Positions 7,301-34,300 of a stretch of 41,606 nucleotides of DNA are shown one piece after another (within the stretch, counting starts at the first letter, position 1; each line of letters starts with the position of its first letter). The stretch spans positions 1 through 41,606 of the forward strand of contig JYFJ02003483.1 of NCBI GenBank assembly GCA_000934665.2, read 5' to 3'. Origin of the DNA: Catajapyx aquilonaris (taxonomy: Eukaryota). A model generated the notes under the pieces. It was not told the DNA's origin and did not search any database. It saw only the letters and a list, made by a program, of their open reading frames with translations. The position numbers and the translations under genes were made by a program.

Positions 7301-10300
7301 CCGTCAGTGCTTGCAGGGCTGGCTGTGATGATCATTCTGATCCCACTTAATGCAGTAATTGCCAACAAGGTGAAGAAGCTGCAGATGGAGCAGATGAAAT
7401 ACAAGGATGAACGTGTCAAACTCATGAATGAAGTTCTCAGTGGCATCAAGGTAAATAATAATGATTTTAAAAAACCCTGTTCTGTTATCACCCAAGGTAC
7501 TTTTGCATGAGACAGTGATAATTTATGAAAATAACAGAAGCTCATTCTTGGAACTTACTGTTTGCAAAAGTGTGCAGGTGCATTTTACAGGATGTTACTC
7601 TGCCAAAGTATTGTTTCTGCAGTATGGCTAGGTGTAAAATTGATGGATTAGTTGTGCTGTAAGCTGGGTTTTAGTTCCAACATGGACAGTGCATCAACCA
7701 TATCTGCCATCATAGAAACCACGATTGTAATTTTGGTGGCTCTGATGGCCACACAAAGGCAGGAGAAAAGTGCTTACAACAGGACAGGGCAAGGAAAAAG
7801 TAGGCAGTGGCTGCTGAGGCAGTCAAAACCTTTCTAGTCTCTGCTTTTTCTGTACTGGGGTGTGCACTTCTCTCCTGCCTTCACCTGACCACCAACAGAA
7901 ATCCTATGAATGCAGACATGAATGCTGCATCATCCATGTTTGAACTTGAACATAGGTCCATGGCATTGAATCCATCAATTTTACACTGTGGCCACACTTC
8001 AGACTGTTGATGCTGGCAGAGTAACACCCTGTATTGTACAGCCCTGCTCTGGACTTCAAGTTAGATCTGAATTCTACCTACTCTTGATCATCCACTGTCA
8101 TAACCACGGCTGTAGAAGACTCAGGTTAGGTCACTCCCCACCCACCCCCTGCCGAAGGATTACGCACCGGGTGCTCCCTTGACAGCGCCACGAGGCATTT
8201 CCCAGAGCAATCATGTGGCGACCCTACCGGACTAAGGCTGAACTTTATAGGTACGAAAGGGGAGGGCTACATGCTGGCCCAACATGGCCGCCGGCGGCCA
8301 TGTTGGGCCCCCCAAGCCCTACCCTTTCGTACCTATAAAGTTCAGCCTTAGTCCGGTAGGGTCGCCACATGATTGCTCTGGGAAATGTCTCGTGGCGCTG
8401 TCAAGGGAGCACCCGGTGCGTAATCCCTCGGCAGGTGATAAGCCCAGAAGATAGGGGTAAGTGTCCGTGGGCTGGTCATAACTGAATGTGATATGAGGCC
8501 TGGAAACACACATAGTTGTCATATGCTATGCCTTTGACAGAAAGTTATTAGGAAATTATCATATGCAAGACATGACAACTCCCATGTTTTTCCAAGCCTC
8601 ATGTTGTGCTCGGTTATTACAATGGGTGACCTAGAGTGGGTGAAGTTCAGAAAATGCAACTGGTGAGATCTGCCTTAATCCCAGAACATGGCTTGAAGAA
8701 TGCCTTTTGTAACTTTAGCAGTTTTGCATTCTGCAAGTGTTCCTGGTGATTATAAATGGGTCATAAGGCTTATTATCATGTAGGTTTTGAAACTATATGC
8801 GTGGGAGCCATCATTCCAAGAGCAAGTGATGGACATTCGTGACAAGGAGGTGATTGTTTTGAAGAAATCTGCATACCTGAATGCTGCCGTTTCTTTTGTG
8901 TGGACGTGTGCTCCTTTTCTGGTAAGTTTATTTCTGCTTATCTAAATCAATGTCTCATTTTAAAATCCAGTAAACACTCACCTGGCCATTGCTGTTAATT
9001 GAACCATGCTTATAATATCTGAATTTTTCTGACAAAGCATCCTAATATTTTTGTGCTGCTTGCCATATTCTGTCCAGCACCTCATTGACATTCACTTCAT
9101 TTTAATATAAATGCATTTATTGTCATTTGAGGGATGAATAATTTAAATTTTCCAGTGTGTGAAATAATGTGTTATTAAAGCTGAAGGCAAGAAAACATTG
9201 ACAAAAATGCTGCTGATAACAGGATGCATGCTTTGTTTAGAATATGGATGTAGTGACTTGATGCTTAATAAAGCATGAAACATTGTTGTCGTTGCTTGTT
9301 CTTGTATGTGTCTTTTCTAATCTTTACACTACTTTTAGGTAGCTATAGCCTCTTTCACCACTTATGTTCTTGTGGACAAAAACAACGTCCTGGATGCATC
9401 CACGGCTTTTGTGTCTCTAACACTATTTAACATTATGCGCATGCCTCTAAACATGCTGCCAATGATGATTATTTTTATTGTCCAGGTACAGTAACTTGAT
9501 TATTGGAATATATAAGTAAGCACTTCTTCTAAATAAGTGCCACATAACAAAGACTAATGGTATGGTGAAAAGCATAAAACAGGCATGGCATGCGAATTCT
9601 TAATGCTCCCTTTCTTCCTCCTTTGATTTACTGCATTTTATGTGTCTGCTCTAAAAAATTGCTTTATTGTGTTTGTTGTCTGTAGTTTTATTTAGTGTTA
9701 ATGTGGATTTATCTGGCTGTTGCTGTGTTTGTCTTTGGGTTGTTGGGGTTAAGATACACCAATCTGCATGAGCCATGTTGGGCCTTGTCATTGTGTGGCC
9801 CATTGATTGGTGGATCCCTGCCACAACAGTCAATAGACAAAGATGCCCACTTGAACCCTGTTTTAGGGTTGGATGGGATAATTCCTTTGATAATTTATTG
9901 CATCATGTAGCATAATTAACAGTTTTCTAGTGTAGTTTGTATTGCATTTGCATGTGTTAATATAATGTGAGGACTACGGTTTCATTATGTTTATAATCAT
10001 ATGTTTAAATGTAAAATGTTACAATGTACGTTGAAATAATTGGCATAGGCACGAACACATCTCCAAATGCATGATGGGCAATGAGGTATATTTCTTTTTT
10101 TGGAATTTCTTCTAATGTAGTCATGATGAAAGAGAGACTACTTTGGTAATGTGCATGATGTGTATTGGGCTGTTGAGAAGTCAACAATTTTGTCAGAAAC
10201 ATTGGCAAAAATTACTGATAGCAGCATTTAAAAATACATAAATACATTATTGCACTAAGAGTGGCATGCCAGTTGGAGATGCAGGCTGTTACTCTAGGGT

Positions 10301-31300: not shown

Positions 31301-34300
31301 TCCCCGGTTTACGAATGATCCGACTTACGGCAATCCGTACTTACGAATGGGCTCCCAAGGCTCCCAGGAAGGAAAATTTATCGTTATTCCTCCACTTTCA
31401 ATCACTTCTTCGTACACTGACTGACAACAAGTTCAACATAAATACTGTATAATTAATAAATAATTGGGAAATTACGTTCTTCGTGCATGTAAACGGACAT
31501 GTGACGTTAGCGGTTCGTTGGAGCAGAATCTTTAAGCTGTATACATATGCTCTGTTCCTCAGGGATCTGAGTTACTTACAAATCCGACATAATTATGGAC
31601 ATTTTCAGGAACGTAACCCCGTTCATAGACCGAGGACTACCTGTACATGGTTCTTGGCAACTCACTGTATATTAATTGTTTATTGCTCAATTACTCAAAA
31701 ATTGGAACCATGCTGATATACATGAATGCTAATGCTGAGGGCAATTCATTACTGAGGCACAAAAAAGTTACTTGCCAGTGCAGGTGTCAGTAACAAATGG
31801 ATGTCAGTGTTTATGGGAAAGAAAAAGAGGCTGGCCTTCACACATATGCCATACTTTGCATCATGACTAGAAATACCAATTCTGTCTTCCTCTTTCCCAC
31901 ATAATCACTTTTCACAGCCATCGGCGCTGGCACAAATGACACTGTCCTATTCATTGCTTGCGCGACGGCTTCCCGAATCTTGCACAACTTTATGCTGGCC
32001 AATGTGATGAGGTCCCCGATGTCCTTCTTTGATACCACCCCACTGGGCCGCATCCTTAGCCGCTTTTCCAAAGATGTGGACGTCATGGATAACACGCTGC
32101 CCATGCAGATCTCAGATTTTGTTTGGTGCCTCTTTGAGGTATGGTTTAGAAATGGGGAGAAATCATCCCAGCCGACAAGATTTAATATGTAGTCTGAAGT
32201 GCAAGCTCATCTGGCAATATTTGGGTGTGTGCTTGCTCACCTATGACCAGCTGAACTTGCACTTTTATCTTCCTTCTTCACCCAAAGTAGTATCTCAAGG
32301 TACTTGTGAATAAGTGCAACTAACCGAATGTCAAATCGGTTGCTTGGATGTGACAAAGGTGCCATATAGACCGAATGATTTGTGGTGTTGCACAGTTCAA
32401 GAGTTGGGAGAACCTTAGTGTTGCTTTGCACAGCTTCAGTCTATAGTATGCTGCCACACTTTCTCTCTAAATGAATGCTATTTCAGTTTCATTAACATTA
32501 ATCTCTTGCAAATCACAGGTTATAGCCACCATTGCAGTAATAAGTTACAGCACTCCCATATTCTTGGCGATCATTGTCCCTATAGGGGTTGTCTACTATT
32601 TTGTGCAGGTAGGACCAAAATCATTTCCTTTGACCAACAACATGTTCATTCTTAACTGCATTTTACAGAGATTTTATGTAGCTACATCACGTCAGCTGAA
32701 GCGACTTGAGTCTGTGTCCAGATCTCCAATATACTCACACTTCAGTGAGACAATAACAGGGACTTCCACCATCAGAGCATACAACCAGCAGGAACGATTC
32801 ATACAGGAATCAGAGGGTAAAGTTGATGCTAACCAGGTCTGCTACTACCCGAGTATTATTTCAAATCGGTGGTTGGCTGTGAGGCTTGAGACTGTCGGAA
32901 ATATCATCATCTTCTTTTCGGCCCTTTTCGCTGTTCTGGGGAAGGACACCCTATACCCAGGGCTAGTTGGACTGTCAGTCAGTTATGCACTGCAGGTGAG
33001 ATGAAATGCAATGATGCATGTTCATTAGGTGAATAAAAACTTGTGGAAGTCATTCAAAAGCTATGTCTATGCAAAATTTCCATATCCAGAATGTAGACTA
33101 CAATGAGATGCGAGAAAGCCATAATAATAATAATGAGTGAGAACTTGTGATAACATGTAATAAATGTTGTGACTCTCAGTTTCAAAACTATTTTAATGTT
33201 GAAATAAGTTTGAATGTGTATTCTTGACTTAGTTTAGCAGCTTTCCTATTTCCACGTTTGATACATTATGGTAAATCTATTTAGATTACTCAAACATTGA
33301 ACTGGCTAGTGAGGATGACCTGTGATGTGGAGACAAACATTGTAGCAGTGGAAAGGATAAAGGAATATGGAGAGACACCTCAGGTACATGAAGATTTTCT
33401 TTGATACTGAAAGCACACTAATTTGAACCATTGTTTAATGCCACTTGAATTATTTCAGGAAGCACCATGGGAGGTGCAGGATGTGAATATCCCTGACGGC
33501 TGGCCAATGTCAGGAAAAGTGGAGTTTGATAATTATGCAACCAGGTACAGAGAGGGCCTGGACCTGGTGCTGAAGGGAATAAGCTGCGTGGTGGAGGGAG
33601 GGGAGAAGGTGGGGATAGTTGGGAGGACAGGGGCTGGGAAGTCCTCCCTGACCCTGGCCCTCCTTCGCATCATAGAGGGGGCAGGGGGAAGGATCCTGAT
33701 TGACGGGGAGGAGATAGGGAGGCTGGGGCTGCACCAGGTCAGGGGGAGGCTCACCATCATCCCACAGGACCCGGTGCTCTTCTCAGGGACACTCAGGCTC
33801 AACCTGGACCCTTTCAACACGTACACTGACCAGCAAGTCTGGGAGGCACTGCAGCATGCCCATCTCAAGGCATATGTCAAGTCACTCAATGCTGGTCTGC
33901 AGCATGAGGTTTCAGAAGGTGGTGAAAACCTCAGGTAAATGGGAAGTTATGTTACTATTGTGCAGAAAAAAACTGTGTAAGATTGTTTAGATCAACACTG
34001 AAGTAGCAGAGTGGGCACATAATTCCTTTTTGTTCCTGACTTGATTAATTACTGCGCTGCTTATTGATTTTGATTGTGGGAGGACACTAAGGGCCCCTGA
34101 GAAAACCCATGTGAGCATGGGGAGGACACATCCAAAATCTGTCCACTTGTGAATCTTGTGTCTGACTCAGGGATCAAACCTGGGATCTCAGGGGTGGAAG
34201 GTTGTGGCACTAACCACTTATCTACGAGGCTGACTAAGTGATTTGGAACTTTTTTATGTGATGTACTAATCACATCATGCATATCTCAAAGAGTACAAGA

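What the first reader, a model, noticed from the sequence alone, without database searches (positions are those of the whole stretch)
9339..32385. Two mutually exclusive exon cassettes in one MRP1 gene, each with a selector/downstream docking-site RNA pairing
Seen: 2 x 147-nt and 3 x 221-nt paralogous exons with intact splice sites and frames. Both clusters share one layout: a selector 88-118 nt after the donor of each non-last variant, a local hairpin after the last variant, and a single complementary site further downstream. Established: Drosophila MRP has alternative exon 4 and exon 8 clusters in these regions, and docking/selector pairing controls mutually exclusive splicing in Dscam1, 14-3-3zeta and Mhc. 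Inference: competing long-range RNA duplexes choose among 2 x 3 = 6 transporter isoforms. The sites persist although the introns are heavily invaded by transposons. The specific elements in this lineage may be undescribed.
Basis: partly seen in the sequence, partly recalled or inferred. Interest (0 to 1): 0.9.

Follow-up and report, generated by a model that had tools for sequence, protein, structure and literature searches.

The report
MRP1 alternative exons with RNA pairings
A drug-export (MRP1/ABCC1) gene of an arthropod carries two sets of interchangeable exons, and matching sequences in the nearby introns resemble the RNA switches known to choose such exons in flies, so this is probably a new example of a known mechanism.

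Summary
The exon part of the finding is correct. An ABCC1/MRP1 gene on the + strand has two 147-nt paralogous exons (9339-9485, 11511-11657) and three 221-nt ones (25050-25270, 29958-30178, 31918-32138). All five have AG/GT splice sites and open frames.

The RNA part is only partly correct. Two of the three claimed selectors are real, statistically unusual complements of a site in the intron after the last variant:
- 9577-9591 with 12094-12108: 15 bp, plus a second collinear helix.
- 30264-30287 with 32345-32368: 13 + 6 bp.

The selector claimed after exon 8a is no better than chance. The local hairpin is significant after 8c but not after 4B.

I also found an 18-bp helix between intron 7 (22537-22554) and a site about 100 nt upstream of exon 8c (31807-31824). 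It crosses the 8b helix, as in the bidirectional pairing model of Drosophila srp.

No RNA run and no close relative's introns could be obtained, so neither usage nor conservation was tested.

Downstream docking/selector control of MRP1 exon clusters is already published for insects (Yue 2017, as cited in PMC6071210). Verdict: a plausible new member of a known kind, in a pancrustacean outside winged insects. Interest is modest.

The parts
8784..8921 (+). constitutive exon upstream of cluster 1 (138 nt)
   Evidence: Boundaries and frame; tblastn to MRP1 proteins.
9339..9485 (+). variable exon 4A (147 nt); weak donor CAG|GTACAG
9524..9544 (+). 5' arm of the second, collinear helix of cluster 1
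   Evidence: Pairs with 12145-12166 (17 of 20 aligned positions). In the flank-only test, 23 of 2000 shuffles score as high. Duplex energy is -28.2 against a shuffle mean of -11.9 (0 of 300 as low). Ensemble pair probability is about 1.
9555..9564 (+). TAATGGTATG, a 5'-splice-site-like 10-mer at +70 after the 4A donor
   Evidence: Occurs only twice in the window; the other copy is at +69 after the 8b donor.
9577..9591 (+). selector after exon 4A (15-nt core)
11511..11657 (+). variable exon 4B (147 nt); consensus donor CAG|GTAAGT
12094..12108 (+). docking site of cluster 1, +437 after the 4B donor and 609 nt before the next exon
12145..12166 (+). 3' arm of the second helix of cluster 1
12717..12801 (+). 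constitutive exon after cluster 1 (85 nt)
21352..21565 (+). constitutive exon before cluster 2 (214 nt)
   Evidence: 18-bp contiguous helix (17 Watson-Crick pairs and 1 G-U) with 31807-31824, at -34.2 kcal/mol. 1 of 1000 shuffles scores as high. It is the only pair of its kind in the window.
25050..25270 (+). variable exon 8a (221 nt); donor TCG|GTAACT; no selector found
29958..30178 (+). variable exon 8b (221 nt); donor GGG|GTAGGT
30247..30256 (+). TAATGGTATG at +69 after the 8b donor
30264..30287 (+). selector after exon 8b
   Evidence: -33.6 kcal/mol with 32345-32368. Statistics. Mean ensemble pair probability is 0.92.
31807..31824 (+). candidate selector 94-111 nt upstream of the exon 8c acceptor
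31918..32138 (+). variable exon 8c (221 nt); donor GAG|GTATGG
32196..32265 (+). strong local hairpin after exon 8c
   Evidence: Folding 32190-32270 gives an MFE of -31.7 kcal/mol and z = -4.60; 0 of 200 shuffles fold as well.
32345..32368 (+). docking site of cluster 2, +207 after the 8c donor and about 150 nt before the next exon
32519..32608 (+). constitutive exon after cluster 2

Best explanation
This is the 3' three quarters of an ABCC1/MRP1 gene of a pancrustacean outside the winged insects. It has two tandem-duplicated clusters of exons that are most likely spliced in a mutually exclusive way, giving up to 2 x 3 transporter isoforms that differ in membrane-spanning segments.

Choice is biased by long-range intronic RNA helices of the published docking/selector type.

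Cluster 1. A bipartite helix (9524-9544 and 9577-9591 with 12145-12166 and 12094-12108) loops out exon 4B. This brings the weak 4A donor near the next exon and favours 4A. Without the helix, 4B wins, because it has a consensus donor and is the proximal exon.

Cluster 2. Two crossing helices cannot easily form together. The downstream helix (30264-30287 with 32345-32368) loops out 8c and favours 8b. The upstream helix (22537-22554 with 31807-31824) loops out 8a and 8b and favours 8c. How 8a is chosen is not explained by any pairing found.

Shown here: the exons, their frames and splice sites, the non-random complementarity, and its dominance in predicted ensembles. Inferred from published srp, Dscam and MRP1 work: that the helices form in vivo, and the direction of their effect.
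For: EXONS
- Lengths, splice sites and frames.
- 221 = 3 x 73 + 2, so zero or two cluster-2 exons shift the frame.
- The paralogous exons are old and constrained. Synonymous differences per site are 0.56-0.78 and non-synonymous 0.23-0.43, with no stops and with [18 protein letters not shown] kept in all three 8 variants.
- Annotated isoforms of 6 of 6 dipteran and hymenopteran sets vary at the cluster-2 block and 3 of 6 at the cluster-1 block. These map to the same residues as the window's clusters.

HELICES
- Significance as listed under the observation check.
- Contiguous Watson-Crick/G-U helix score against 1000 shuffles: 4A 37 (0 as high), 8b 32 (5 as high), intron 7 with the stretch before 8c 41 (1 as high).
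- All three pairs are unique in the window and lie in non-repeated DNA.
- Partition-function folding of the whole stretch from donor to docking site gives a mean pair probability of 0.96 for the cluster-1 core, with 14 of 15 pairs in the MFE structure (2715 nt). For the cluster-2 core it is 0.92, and forcing the helix costs only 0.8 kcal/mol (2340 nt).
- Donor strengths fit the model: 4A GTACAG against 4B GTAAGT.

PRECEDENT
- In Drosophila srp, a pairing between the inter-exon intron and a docking site before the next constitutive exon is required for inclusion of the proximal exon. The upstream pairing directs the distal exon. Both were shown with compensatory mutants (PMC4691838 sections 5 and 7).
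- MRP1 is listed among genes with a downstream docking site (PMC6071210 passages).
Against: - No RNA evidence: no RNA run was listed.
- No conservation evidence: no genome is held, the best metagenome relative is 73% identical at protein level, and the best database protein is about 60-74% identical.
- Only one selector per docking site was found, so there is no competition at the docking site itself.
- 8a has no selector.
- No upstream pairing was found for cluster 1 or for 8b: 692 and 698 of 1000 shuffles do as well.
- The single MFE structure of the cluster-2 stretch does not contain the helix; the selector folds locally instead.
- Thermodynamic folding of 2-3 kb RNAs ignores co-transcriptional folding and proteins, and the loops are 2.0-2.5 kb for the downstream helices and 9.3 kb for the upstream one.
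- The cluster-1 arms look like a roughly 105-nt imperfect inverted repeat. A 15-nt perfect run could therefore be a leftover of an inverted duplication and not a selected element.
- The outermost predicted pairs of that repeat cover +3..+10 of the 4A intron. If real, they would hinder 4A use, not help it.
Confidence: 0.55

Rival explanations
1. The exon clusters are real mutually exclusive exons, but the intronic complements are neutral. They would be chance matches or decaying inverted duplications with no role in exon choice, which would then be set by splice-site strength, proteins and nonsense-mediated decay.
For: - The cluster-1 arms align as an imperfect inverted repeat of about 105 nt, in which a 15-nt run is not very surprising.
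- 8a has no selector.
- There is no competition at either docking site.
- The frame rule alone enforces exclusivity in cluster 2.
- Other 12-13-nt complements exist between these introns, for example 25616-25628 with 31836-31848, where 28 of 1000 shuffles do as well.
Against: - Three independent helices each reach about 1 in 1000 against shuffles.
- Two of them start at nearly the same distance after a variable exon's donor (+92 and +88).
- The cluster-2 helix has non-complementary outer flanks (1108 of 2000 shuffles as good), so it is not a decayed long repeat.
- Synonymous sites of the exon paralogues are saturated, so neutral intron sequence of the age of the duplication should no longer match.
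Confidence: 0.25
2. The helices are functional but act on the exon they enclose. They would promote skipping or back-splicing (a circular RNA) of exon 4B and exon 8c, or mask the 4A donor. The direction or product would then differ from the docking/selector model.
For: - The downstream helices bracket exactly one exon each (4B, 8c), which is the classical geometry for exon circularisation by flanking inverted repeats (established knowledge, recalled).
- Predicted pairs reach +3..+10 of the 4A intron, with pair probability 0.75-0.99.
Against: - In the tested precedent with the same geometry (srp stem II), the pairing activates the exon upstream of the selector.
- The pairs at the 4A donor lie at the end of the folded stretch and may be an end effect of where I cut it.
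- Skipping of the enclosed exon and activation of the upstream one give the same linear outcome.
Confidence: 0.12
3. One or more variants, most likely 8a, are no longer used, so the clusters give fewer than six isoforms.
For: - 8a has the weakest-looking donor (TCG|GTAACT).
- It has the longest and most transposon-filled downstream intron (4687 nt, of which 1865 are repeated within the window).
- It has no selector.
- A MITE-like inverted repeat lies 61-133 nt before its acceptor.
Against: - 8a keeps an open frame, both splice sites and the conserved [22 protein letters not shown] motif, although its synonymous differences from 8b and 8c are saturated. That argues for continued selection on the coding sequence.
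Confidence: 0.08

Closest known systems
Insect MRP1 (Drosophila dMRP/CG6214) exon 4 and exon 8 clusters with a downstream docking site and selectors. Source: Yang et al. 2011 NSMB and Yue et al. 2017 RNA Biol, known to me only through PMC6071210 passages and recall; neither paper could be read.
   Same: It is the same gene family. The two variable blocks fall at the same protein positions. The docking site lies in the intron after the last variant, and the selector lies in the intron after a variable exon.
   Different: There are 2 and 3 variants here, against 8 in the larger Drosophila cluster (PMC6071210 and PMC9741552). Only one selector per docking site is detectable. Both 4A and 4B resemble the same one of the two dipteran or beetle variants, for example 63/61% against 39/35% identity to the D. 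santomea isoforms, so the duplication is probably independent. The host lies outside the winged insects.
Bidirectional RNA pairing in the Drosophila serpent (srp) exon 4 cluster. Source: Yue et al. 2016, PMC4691838; abstract and sections 5 and 7 read.
   Same: In both, a downstream pairing favours the proximal exon and an upstream pairing from the intron after the preceding constitutive exon favours the distal exon. The two pairings cross, so they would form a pseudoknot if both were present. Cluster 2 here has exactly this topology: 22537 < 30264 < 31824 < 32345.
   Different: srp has two exons, while cluster 2 has three and 8a is left without an element. The srp elements are conserved across Drosophila and were tested by compensatory mutants; nothing of that kind is available here. 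Cluster 1 shows only the downstream pairing.
Dscam1 exon 6 docking site and selector sequences. Source: Graveley 2005, as described in PMC6071210.
   Same: Competing long-range intronic helices decide which exon of a tandem array is included.
   Different: In Dscam1 exon 6 the docking site is upstream, and every one of the many variants has a selector for the same site. Here the docking sites are downstream and each has a single partner.
Exon looping by flanking inverted repeats, which drives exon skipping and circular RNA formation (established knowledge, recalled).
   Same: Complementary intronic arms bracket a single exon at a distance of about 2 kb.
   Different: Those arms are usually long transposon copies. 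Here they are short, single-copy sequences lying in non-repeated DNA.

Membership tests
ABCC1/MRP1 long multidrug-resistance-associated protein gene | Two ABC_membrane domains and two ABC_tran domains, with highest similarity to annotated MRP1 proteins. | tested here: met
   ABC_membrane (E = 3e-15) and ABC_tran (E = 1e-15) were found on the two exons scanned. tblastn lays residues of about 263-1538 of annotated MRP1 proteins along 1099-34964. All named top hits are MRP1/ABCC1. The 5' part of the gene lies outside the window.
Mutually exclusive exon cluster made by tandem exon duplication | Adjacent homologous exons of equal length and the same phase, with intact splice sites. | tested here: met
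   Two exons of 147 nt and three of 221 nt. Amino-acid identity between paralogues is 47-63%.
Mutually exclusive exon cluster made by tandem exon duplication | Exactly one variant per cluster in mature mRNA. | not testable with these tools
   No RNA run was listed, so read laying could not be used. Indirect evidence only: the frame rule for the 221-nt exons and annotated isoforms of other species that differ at the same blocks.
Docking site / selector competing RNA structures (Graveley 2005; Yang 2011; Yue 2017) | A docking site in an intron flanking the cluster that is complementary to an element next to a variable exon. | tested here: met
   9577-9591 with 12094-12108, and 30264-30287 with 32345-32368. 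Both are significant against shuffles and against real-sequence windows.
Docking site / selector competing RNA structures (Graveley 2005; Yang 2011; Yue 2017) | A selector next to every variable exon, or nearly every one, all competing for the same docking site. | tested here: not met
   Only one selector per docking site. 8a is at chance level. The best local partners of the docking sites within the last introns reach only -19.4 and -22.4 kcal/mol, with large loops.
Docking site / selector competing RNA structures (Graveley 2005; Yang 2011; Yue 2017) | Conservation and compensatory change of the paired elements in related species. | not testable with these tools
   No genome is held. The 80 metagenome loci are at most 73% identical at protein level, and only 3 of them have a second exon-8-like match.
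Bidirectional RNA pairing (srp type, Yue 2016) | An upstream pairing and a downstream pairing that cross each other, each bringing one variant next to a constitutive exon. | tested here: inconclusive
   Cluster 2 has both, and they cross. Cluster 1 has only the downstream pairing. Whether the helices form, and what they do, was not tested.
Bidirectional RNA pairing (srp type, Yue 2016) | Exon choice changes with disruptive mutations and is restored by compensatory ones. | not testable with these tools
   This needs a bench experiment.

The most novel reading that the evidence does not exclude
The docking/selector architecture arose independently in this non-pterygote pancrustacean after its own exon duplications. 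In addition, the two unrelated clusters share a common module: the 5'-splice-site-like 10-mer TAATGGTATG at +69/+70 after the donor, followed within about 20 nt by the selector. A shared module would suggest one trans-acting factor, such as U1 snRNP on a decoy site or an RNA-binding protein, that licenses both long-range helices. That could couple exon choice at the two clusters, so that the six isoforms are not chosen independently.
Probability: 0.1. Interest if true: 0.55.

Novelty: new member of a known kind. Interest (0 to 1): 0.3.

Why it matters
If the helices work as proposed, this locus would extend RNA-pairing control of MRP1 exon choice to a pancrustacean lineage outside the winged insects. 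The exon duplications there appear to be independent of the dipteran ones, which would support the idea that competing RNA structures evolve repeatedly alongside tandem exon duplication. It would also give a compact three-exon case that combines a downstream and an upstream pairing, which is convenient for minigene work. It does not open a new kind of mechanism, and MRP1 is already one of the named examples.

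Tried and rejected
- RNA evidence: the look-up of sequencing runs on 25000-34900, kind rna, listed no RNA holder. Read laying was therefore never used.
- Own genome: none is held.
- Earlier notes of this scan: nothing by place or by words.
- Key paper: Yue et al. 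2017 is not held, by PMC id or by DOI. Yang 2011 and Graveley 2005 were not looked up.
- Close relatives by protein search: two searches with the NBD2 exon and the exon 9-10 stretch, 'longer' lengths.
- Orthologous introns from metagenomes: 80 loci kept, best 73% identity. Only 3 of 80 have two exon-8-like matches, and two of those three look like the same sequence. Not pursued.
- A permissive pairing-alignment score gave long, uninformative alignments, and I replaced it with stricter statistics. Its one usable result was collinear complementarity of 30265-30485 with 32142-32367, which 1 of 300 shuffles matched.
- Unrestricted RNAduplex against whole introns inflated energies through long loops, so I replaced it with windowed scans.
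- Searches for a selector after 8a found nothing above background.
- Upstream pairings for 4B and 8b: none.
- One-to-one orthology of the variants with insect variants: not seen.
- Rfam: no family on any of the elements; the only hit is one tRNA-like match elsewhere.
- Two tree scripts stopped on my own coordinate errors and were corrected.

Full report
WHAT IS THERE

The + strand carries the 3' three quarters of an ABCC1/MRP1 gene. tblastn lays residues of about 263-1538 of annotated MRP1 proteins along 1099-34964. Two exons scanned against Pfam give ABC_membrane and ABC_tran.

- 4A 9339-9485 and 4B 11511-11657, 147 nt each, phase 0.
- 8a 25050-25270, 8b 29958-30178 and 8c 31918-32138, 221 nt each, entered in phase 1.

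All five have an AG acceptor, a GT donor and one open frame. The flanking constitutive exons are 8784-8921, 12717-12801, 21352-21565, and one starting at 32519. My first estimate of 12718 for exon 5 was one base off and was corrected.

Because 221 = 3 x 73 + 2, zero or two cluster-2 exons break the frame. Cluster 1 has no such safeguard.

ARE ALL VARIANTS ALIVE?

Between paralogues, synonymous differences per site are 0.56-0.78 (saturated or nearly so) and non-synonymous differences are 0.23-0.43. There are no stops, and the conserved [18 protein letters not shown] motif is kept in all three 8 variants. That pattern means old duplicates under purifying selection, which argues that all five are used.

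Isoform sets that NCBI annotates differ at the same two protein blocks. I took the sets from the 235 proteins my two searches returned: 8 D. santomea, 8 An. darlingi, 5 Ph. argentipes, 6 N. pinetum, 4 Malaya and 4 Armigeres isoforms. All 6 sets vary at the second block and 3 of 6 at the first. The window's clusters map to those residues.

Both 4A and 4B are closer to the same one of the two dipteran or beetle variants, for example 63/61% against 39/35% for D. santomea and 71/59% against 45/49% for Zophobas. The duplication here is therefore probably independent.

WHOSE GENE?

No database protein is close: the weighted tblastn identity is about 60% at best.

I built a quick maximum-likelihood tree of 35 rows, from 34 proteins that I picked out of 235 plus the window's exon translations. 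The window falls inside a 30-row pancrustacean clade (SH-aLRT 99) but outside the 22-row winged-insect clade (99). It sits in an unresolved fork with springtail, copepod, branchiopod and malacostracan rows. 'Insect' is therefore not established.

THE PAIRINGS

Cluster 1. The stretch 9577-9591 (+92..+106 after the 4A donor) is a perfect 15-nt complement of 12094-12108, which lies in the intron after 4B.

Cluster 2. The stretch 30274-30286 is a perfect 13-nt complement of 32346-32358. With a 2-nt internal loop the match extends to 19 of 21 positions (30266-30286 with 32346-32366), at -33.6 kcal/mol.

| Element | Longest perfect complement | Shuffles as long, of 2000 | Real 80-nt windows as long | Windowed duplex energy, kcal/mol | Shuffles as low, of 100 | Contiguous WC/G-U helix score | Shuffles as high, of 1000 |
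|---|---|---|---|---|---|---|---|
| 4A | 15 nt | 2 | 1 of 2002 | -34.1 | 2 | 37 | 0 |
| 8b | 13 nt | 1 | 0 of 2036 | -38.4 | 0 | 32 | 5 |
| 8a | 8 nt | 855 | 742 of 2036 | -22.7 | 45 | 25 | 69 |

So two of the three selectors stand, and the 8a selector does not.

Each standing pair is the only match in the window and lies in DNA that is not repeated within the window.

WHOLE-STRETCH FOLDING

For 9486-12200 (2715 nt), 14 of the 15 core pairs are in the MFE structure and the mean pair probability is 0.96.

For 30179-32518 (2340 nt), the MFE structure lacks the helix and the selector folds locally. Forcing the helix costs only 0.8 kcal/mol, and its mean ensemble probability is 0.92. In the ensemble it sits in a ladder of nested helices that enclose exon 8c.

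These predictions ignore kinetics and proteins.

EXTRA ANATOMY IN CLUSTER 1

A second, collinear helix pairs 9524-9544 with 12145-12166 (17 of 20 aligned positions).
- In the flank-only alignment test, 23 of 2000 shuffles score as high.
- The duplex energy is -28.2 kcal/mol against a shuffle mean of -11.9, with 0 of 300 as low. This segment was chosen after seeing it.
- The ensemble pair probability is about 1.

Together the arms look like an imperfect inverted repeat of about 105 nt that starts at +3 of the 4A intron. This cuts both ways. It strengthens the case for non-randomness. It also allows a neutral origin by inverted duplication, and the outermost pairs, if real, would cover part of the 4A donor.

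In cluster 2 the outer flanks are not complementary: 1108 of 2000 shuffles do as well.

The stretch 22537-22554 in intron 7 forms an 18-bp contiguous helix (17 Watson-Crick pairs and 1 G-U, -34.2 kcal/mol) with 31807-31824, which lies 94-111 nt before the 8c acceptor.
- 1 of 1000 shuffles scores as high.
- On perfect Watson-Crick run length alone, 18 of 1000 shuffles do as well.
- It is the only such pair in the window.

It crosses the 8b helix (22537 < 30264 < 31824 < 32345). This is the topology of the bidirectional pairing shown experimentally for Drosophila srp. There the downstream pairing is required for the proximal exon and the upstream pairing directs the distal exon (PMC4691838, abstract and sections 5 and 7).

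No upstream partner was found for 4B or 8b: 692 and 698 of 1000 shuffles do as well.

LOCAL HAIRPINS

After 8c there is a strong hairpin at 32196-32265. Folding 32190-32270 gives -31.7 kcal/mol and z = -4.60, with 0 of 200 shuffles as good. After 4B the fold is ordinary (z = -0.13, 82 of 200 as good). The stretches after 4A and 8b are, if anything, less structured than their shuffles (z = +0.80 and +0.87).

HOW IT PROBABLY WORKS

This part is inferred. Downstream helices loop out the last variant and bring the donor of 4A, or of 8b, near the next constitutive exon. The intron-7 helix loops out 8a and 8b and brings exon 7 near 8c. Donor strengths fit cluster 1: 4A has GTACAG and 4B has GTAAGT. 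How 8a is selected is open.

WHAT IS KNOWN

PMC6071210 (passages read) states three things:
- Competing structures were reported for insect 14-3-3zeta, Mhc and MRP1.
- The docking sites in those genes lie downstream of the cluster.
- MRP exon arrays arose by multiple independent duplications across phyla (its reference 10, Yue et al. 2017).

PMC8791459 (two passages) lists Branchiostoma MRP and mentions balancer structures in MRP1. I could not read Yue 2017, and I did not open the supplements of PMC8791459. Either could already cover this lineage.

VERDICT

The exon observation is right. The RNA layout is half right and richer than described. The mechanism is a known one in a known gene, and it is untested here for lack of RNA data and related genomes. 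It is a new member of a known kind, of modest interest.

Noticed in passing
window 9555-9564 and 30247-30256: TAATGGTATG, which resembles a 5' splice site, occurs only twice in the 41.6-kb window: at +70 after the 4A donor and at +69 after the 8b donor, each just before a selector. A same-offset match of 10 nt or more arose in 7 of 5000 shuffles (a post-hoc test). GTATG also lies within 200 nt after the donors of 4A, 4B, 8b and 8c, but not after 8a or the three constitutive donors checked.
   Followed up: partly
window 32196-32265: A strong local hairpin lies +58..+127 after the 8c donor (z = -4.6, 0 of 200 shuffles as good). It matches no Rfam family, and its role is unknown.
   Followed up: partly
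window 25616-25628 and 31836-31848: A 13-nt perfect complement links the 8a intron to a site 70-82 nt before the 8c acceptor, next to the intron-7 target. It gives -23.5 kcal/mol, and 28 of 1000 shuffles do as well. It may be chance.
   Followed up: partly
window 24536-24608 and 24917-24989: A MITE-like inverted repeat (73-nt arms, 88% complementary) ends 61 nt before the exon 8a acceptor. It could affect 8a usage.
   Followed up: no
window 32609-32668: A 60-nt GT..AG intron between two constitutive exons is in frame and has no stop, so retaining it would add 20 residues.
   Followed up: no
window 2479-3454 (-) and 35877-36383 (+): These are Tc1/mariner transposase remnants: DDE_3 and Sleeping-Beauty/Tc3 HTH domains in an upstream intron, and a Mos1-type HTH downstream of the gene.
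   Followed up: partly
window 37576-37643 (-): A tRNA-like Rfam match (34 bits) lies inside a dispersed element. Similar translated peptides recur near 18080-18350 and 38565-38810 in the ORF list. It is probably a tRNA-derived SINE.
   Followed up: no
window 29765-30325 (-): A 186-codon open frame lies antisense to exon 8b and its flanks. It was not examined and is probably a by-product of the coding strand.
   Followed up: no
L066 5844-6672 (L071 looks the same): A metagenome contig carries two exon-8-like matches about 430 nt apart, after an exon-7-like match. It may be a short-intron MRP exon pair in an unrelated organism.
   Followed up: no
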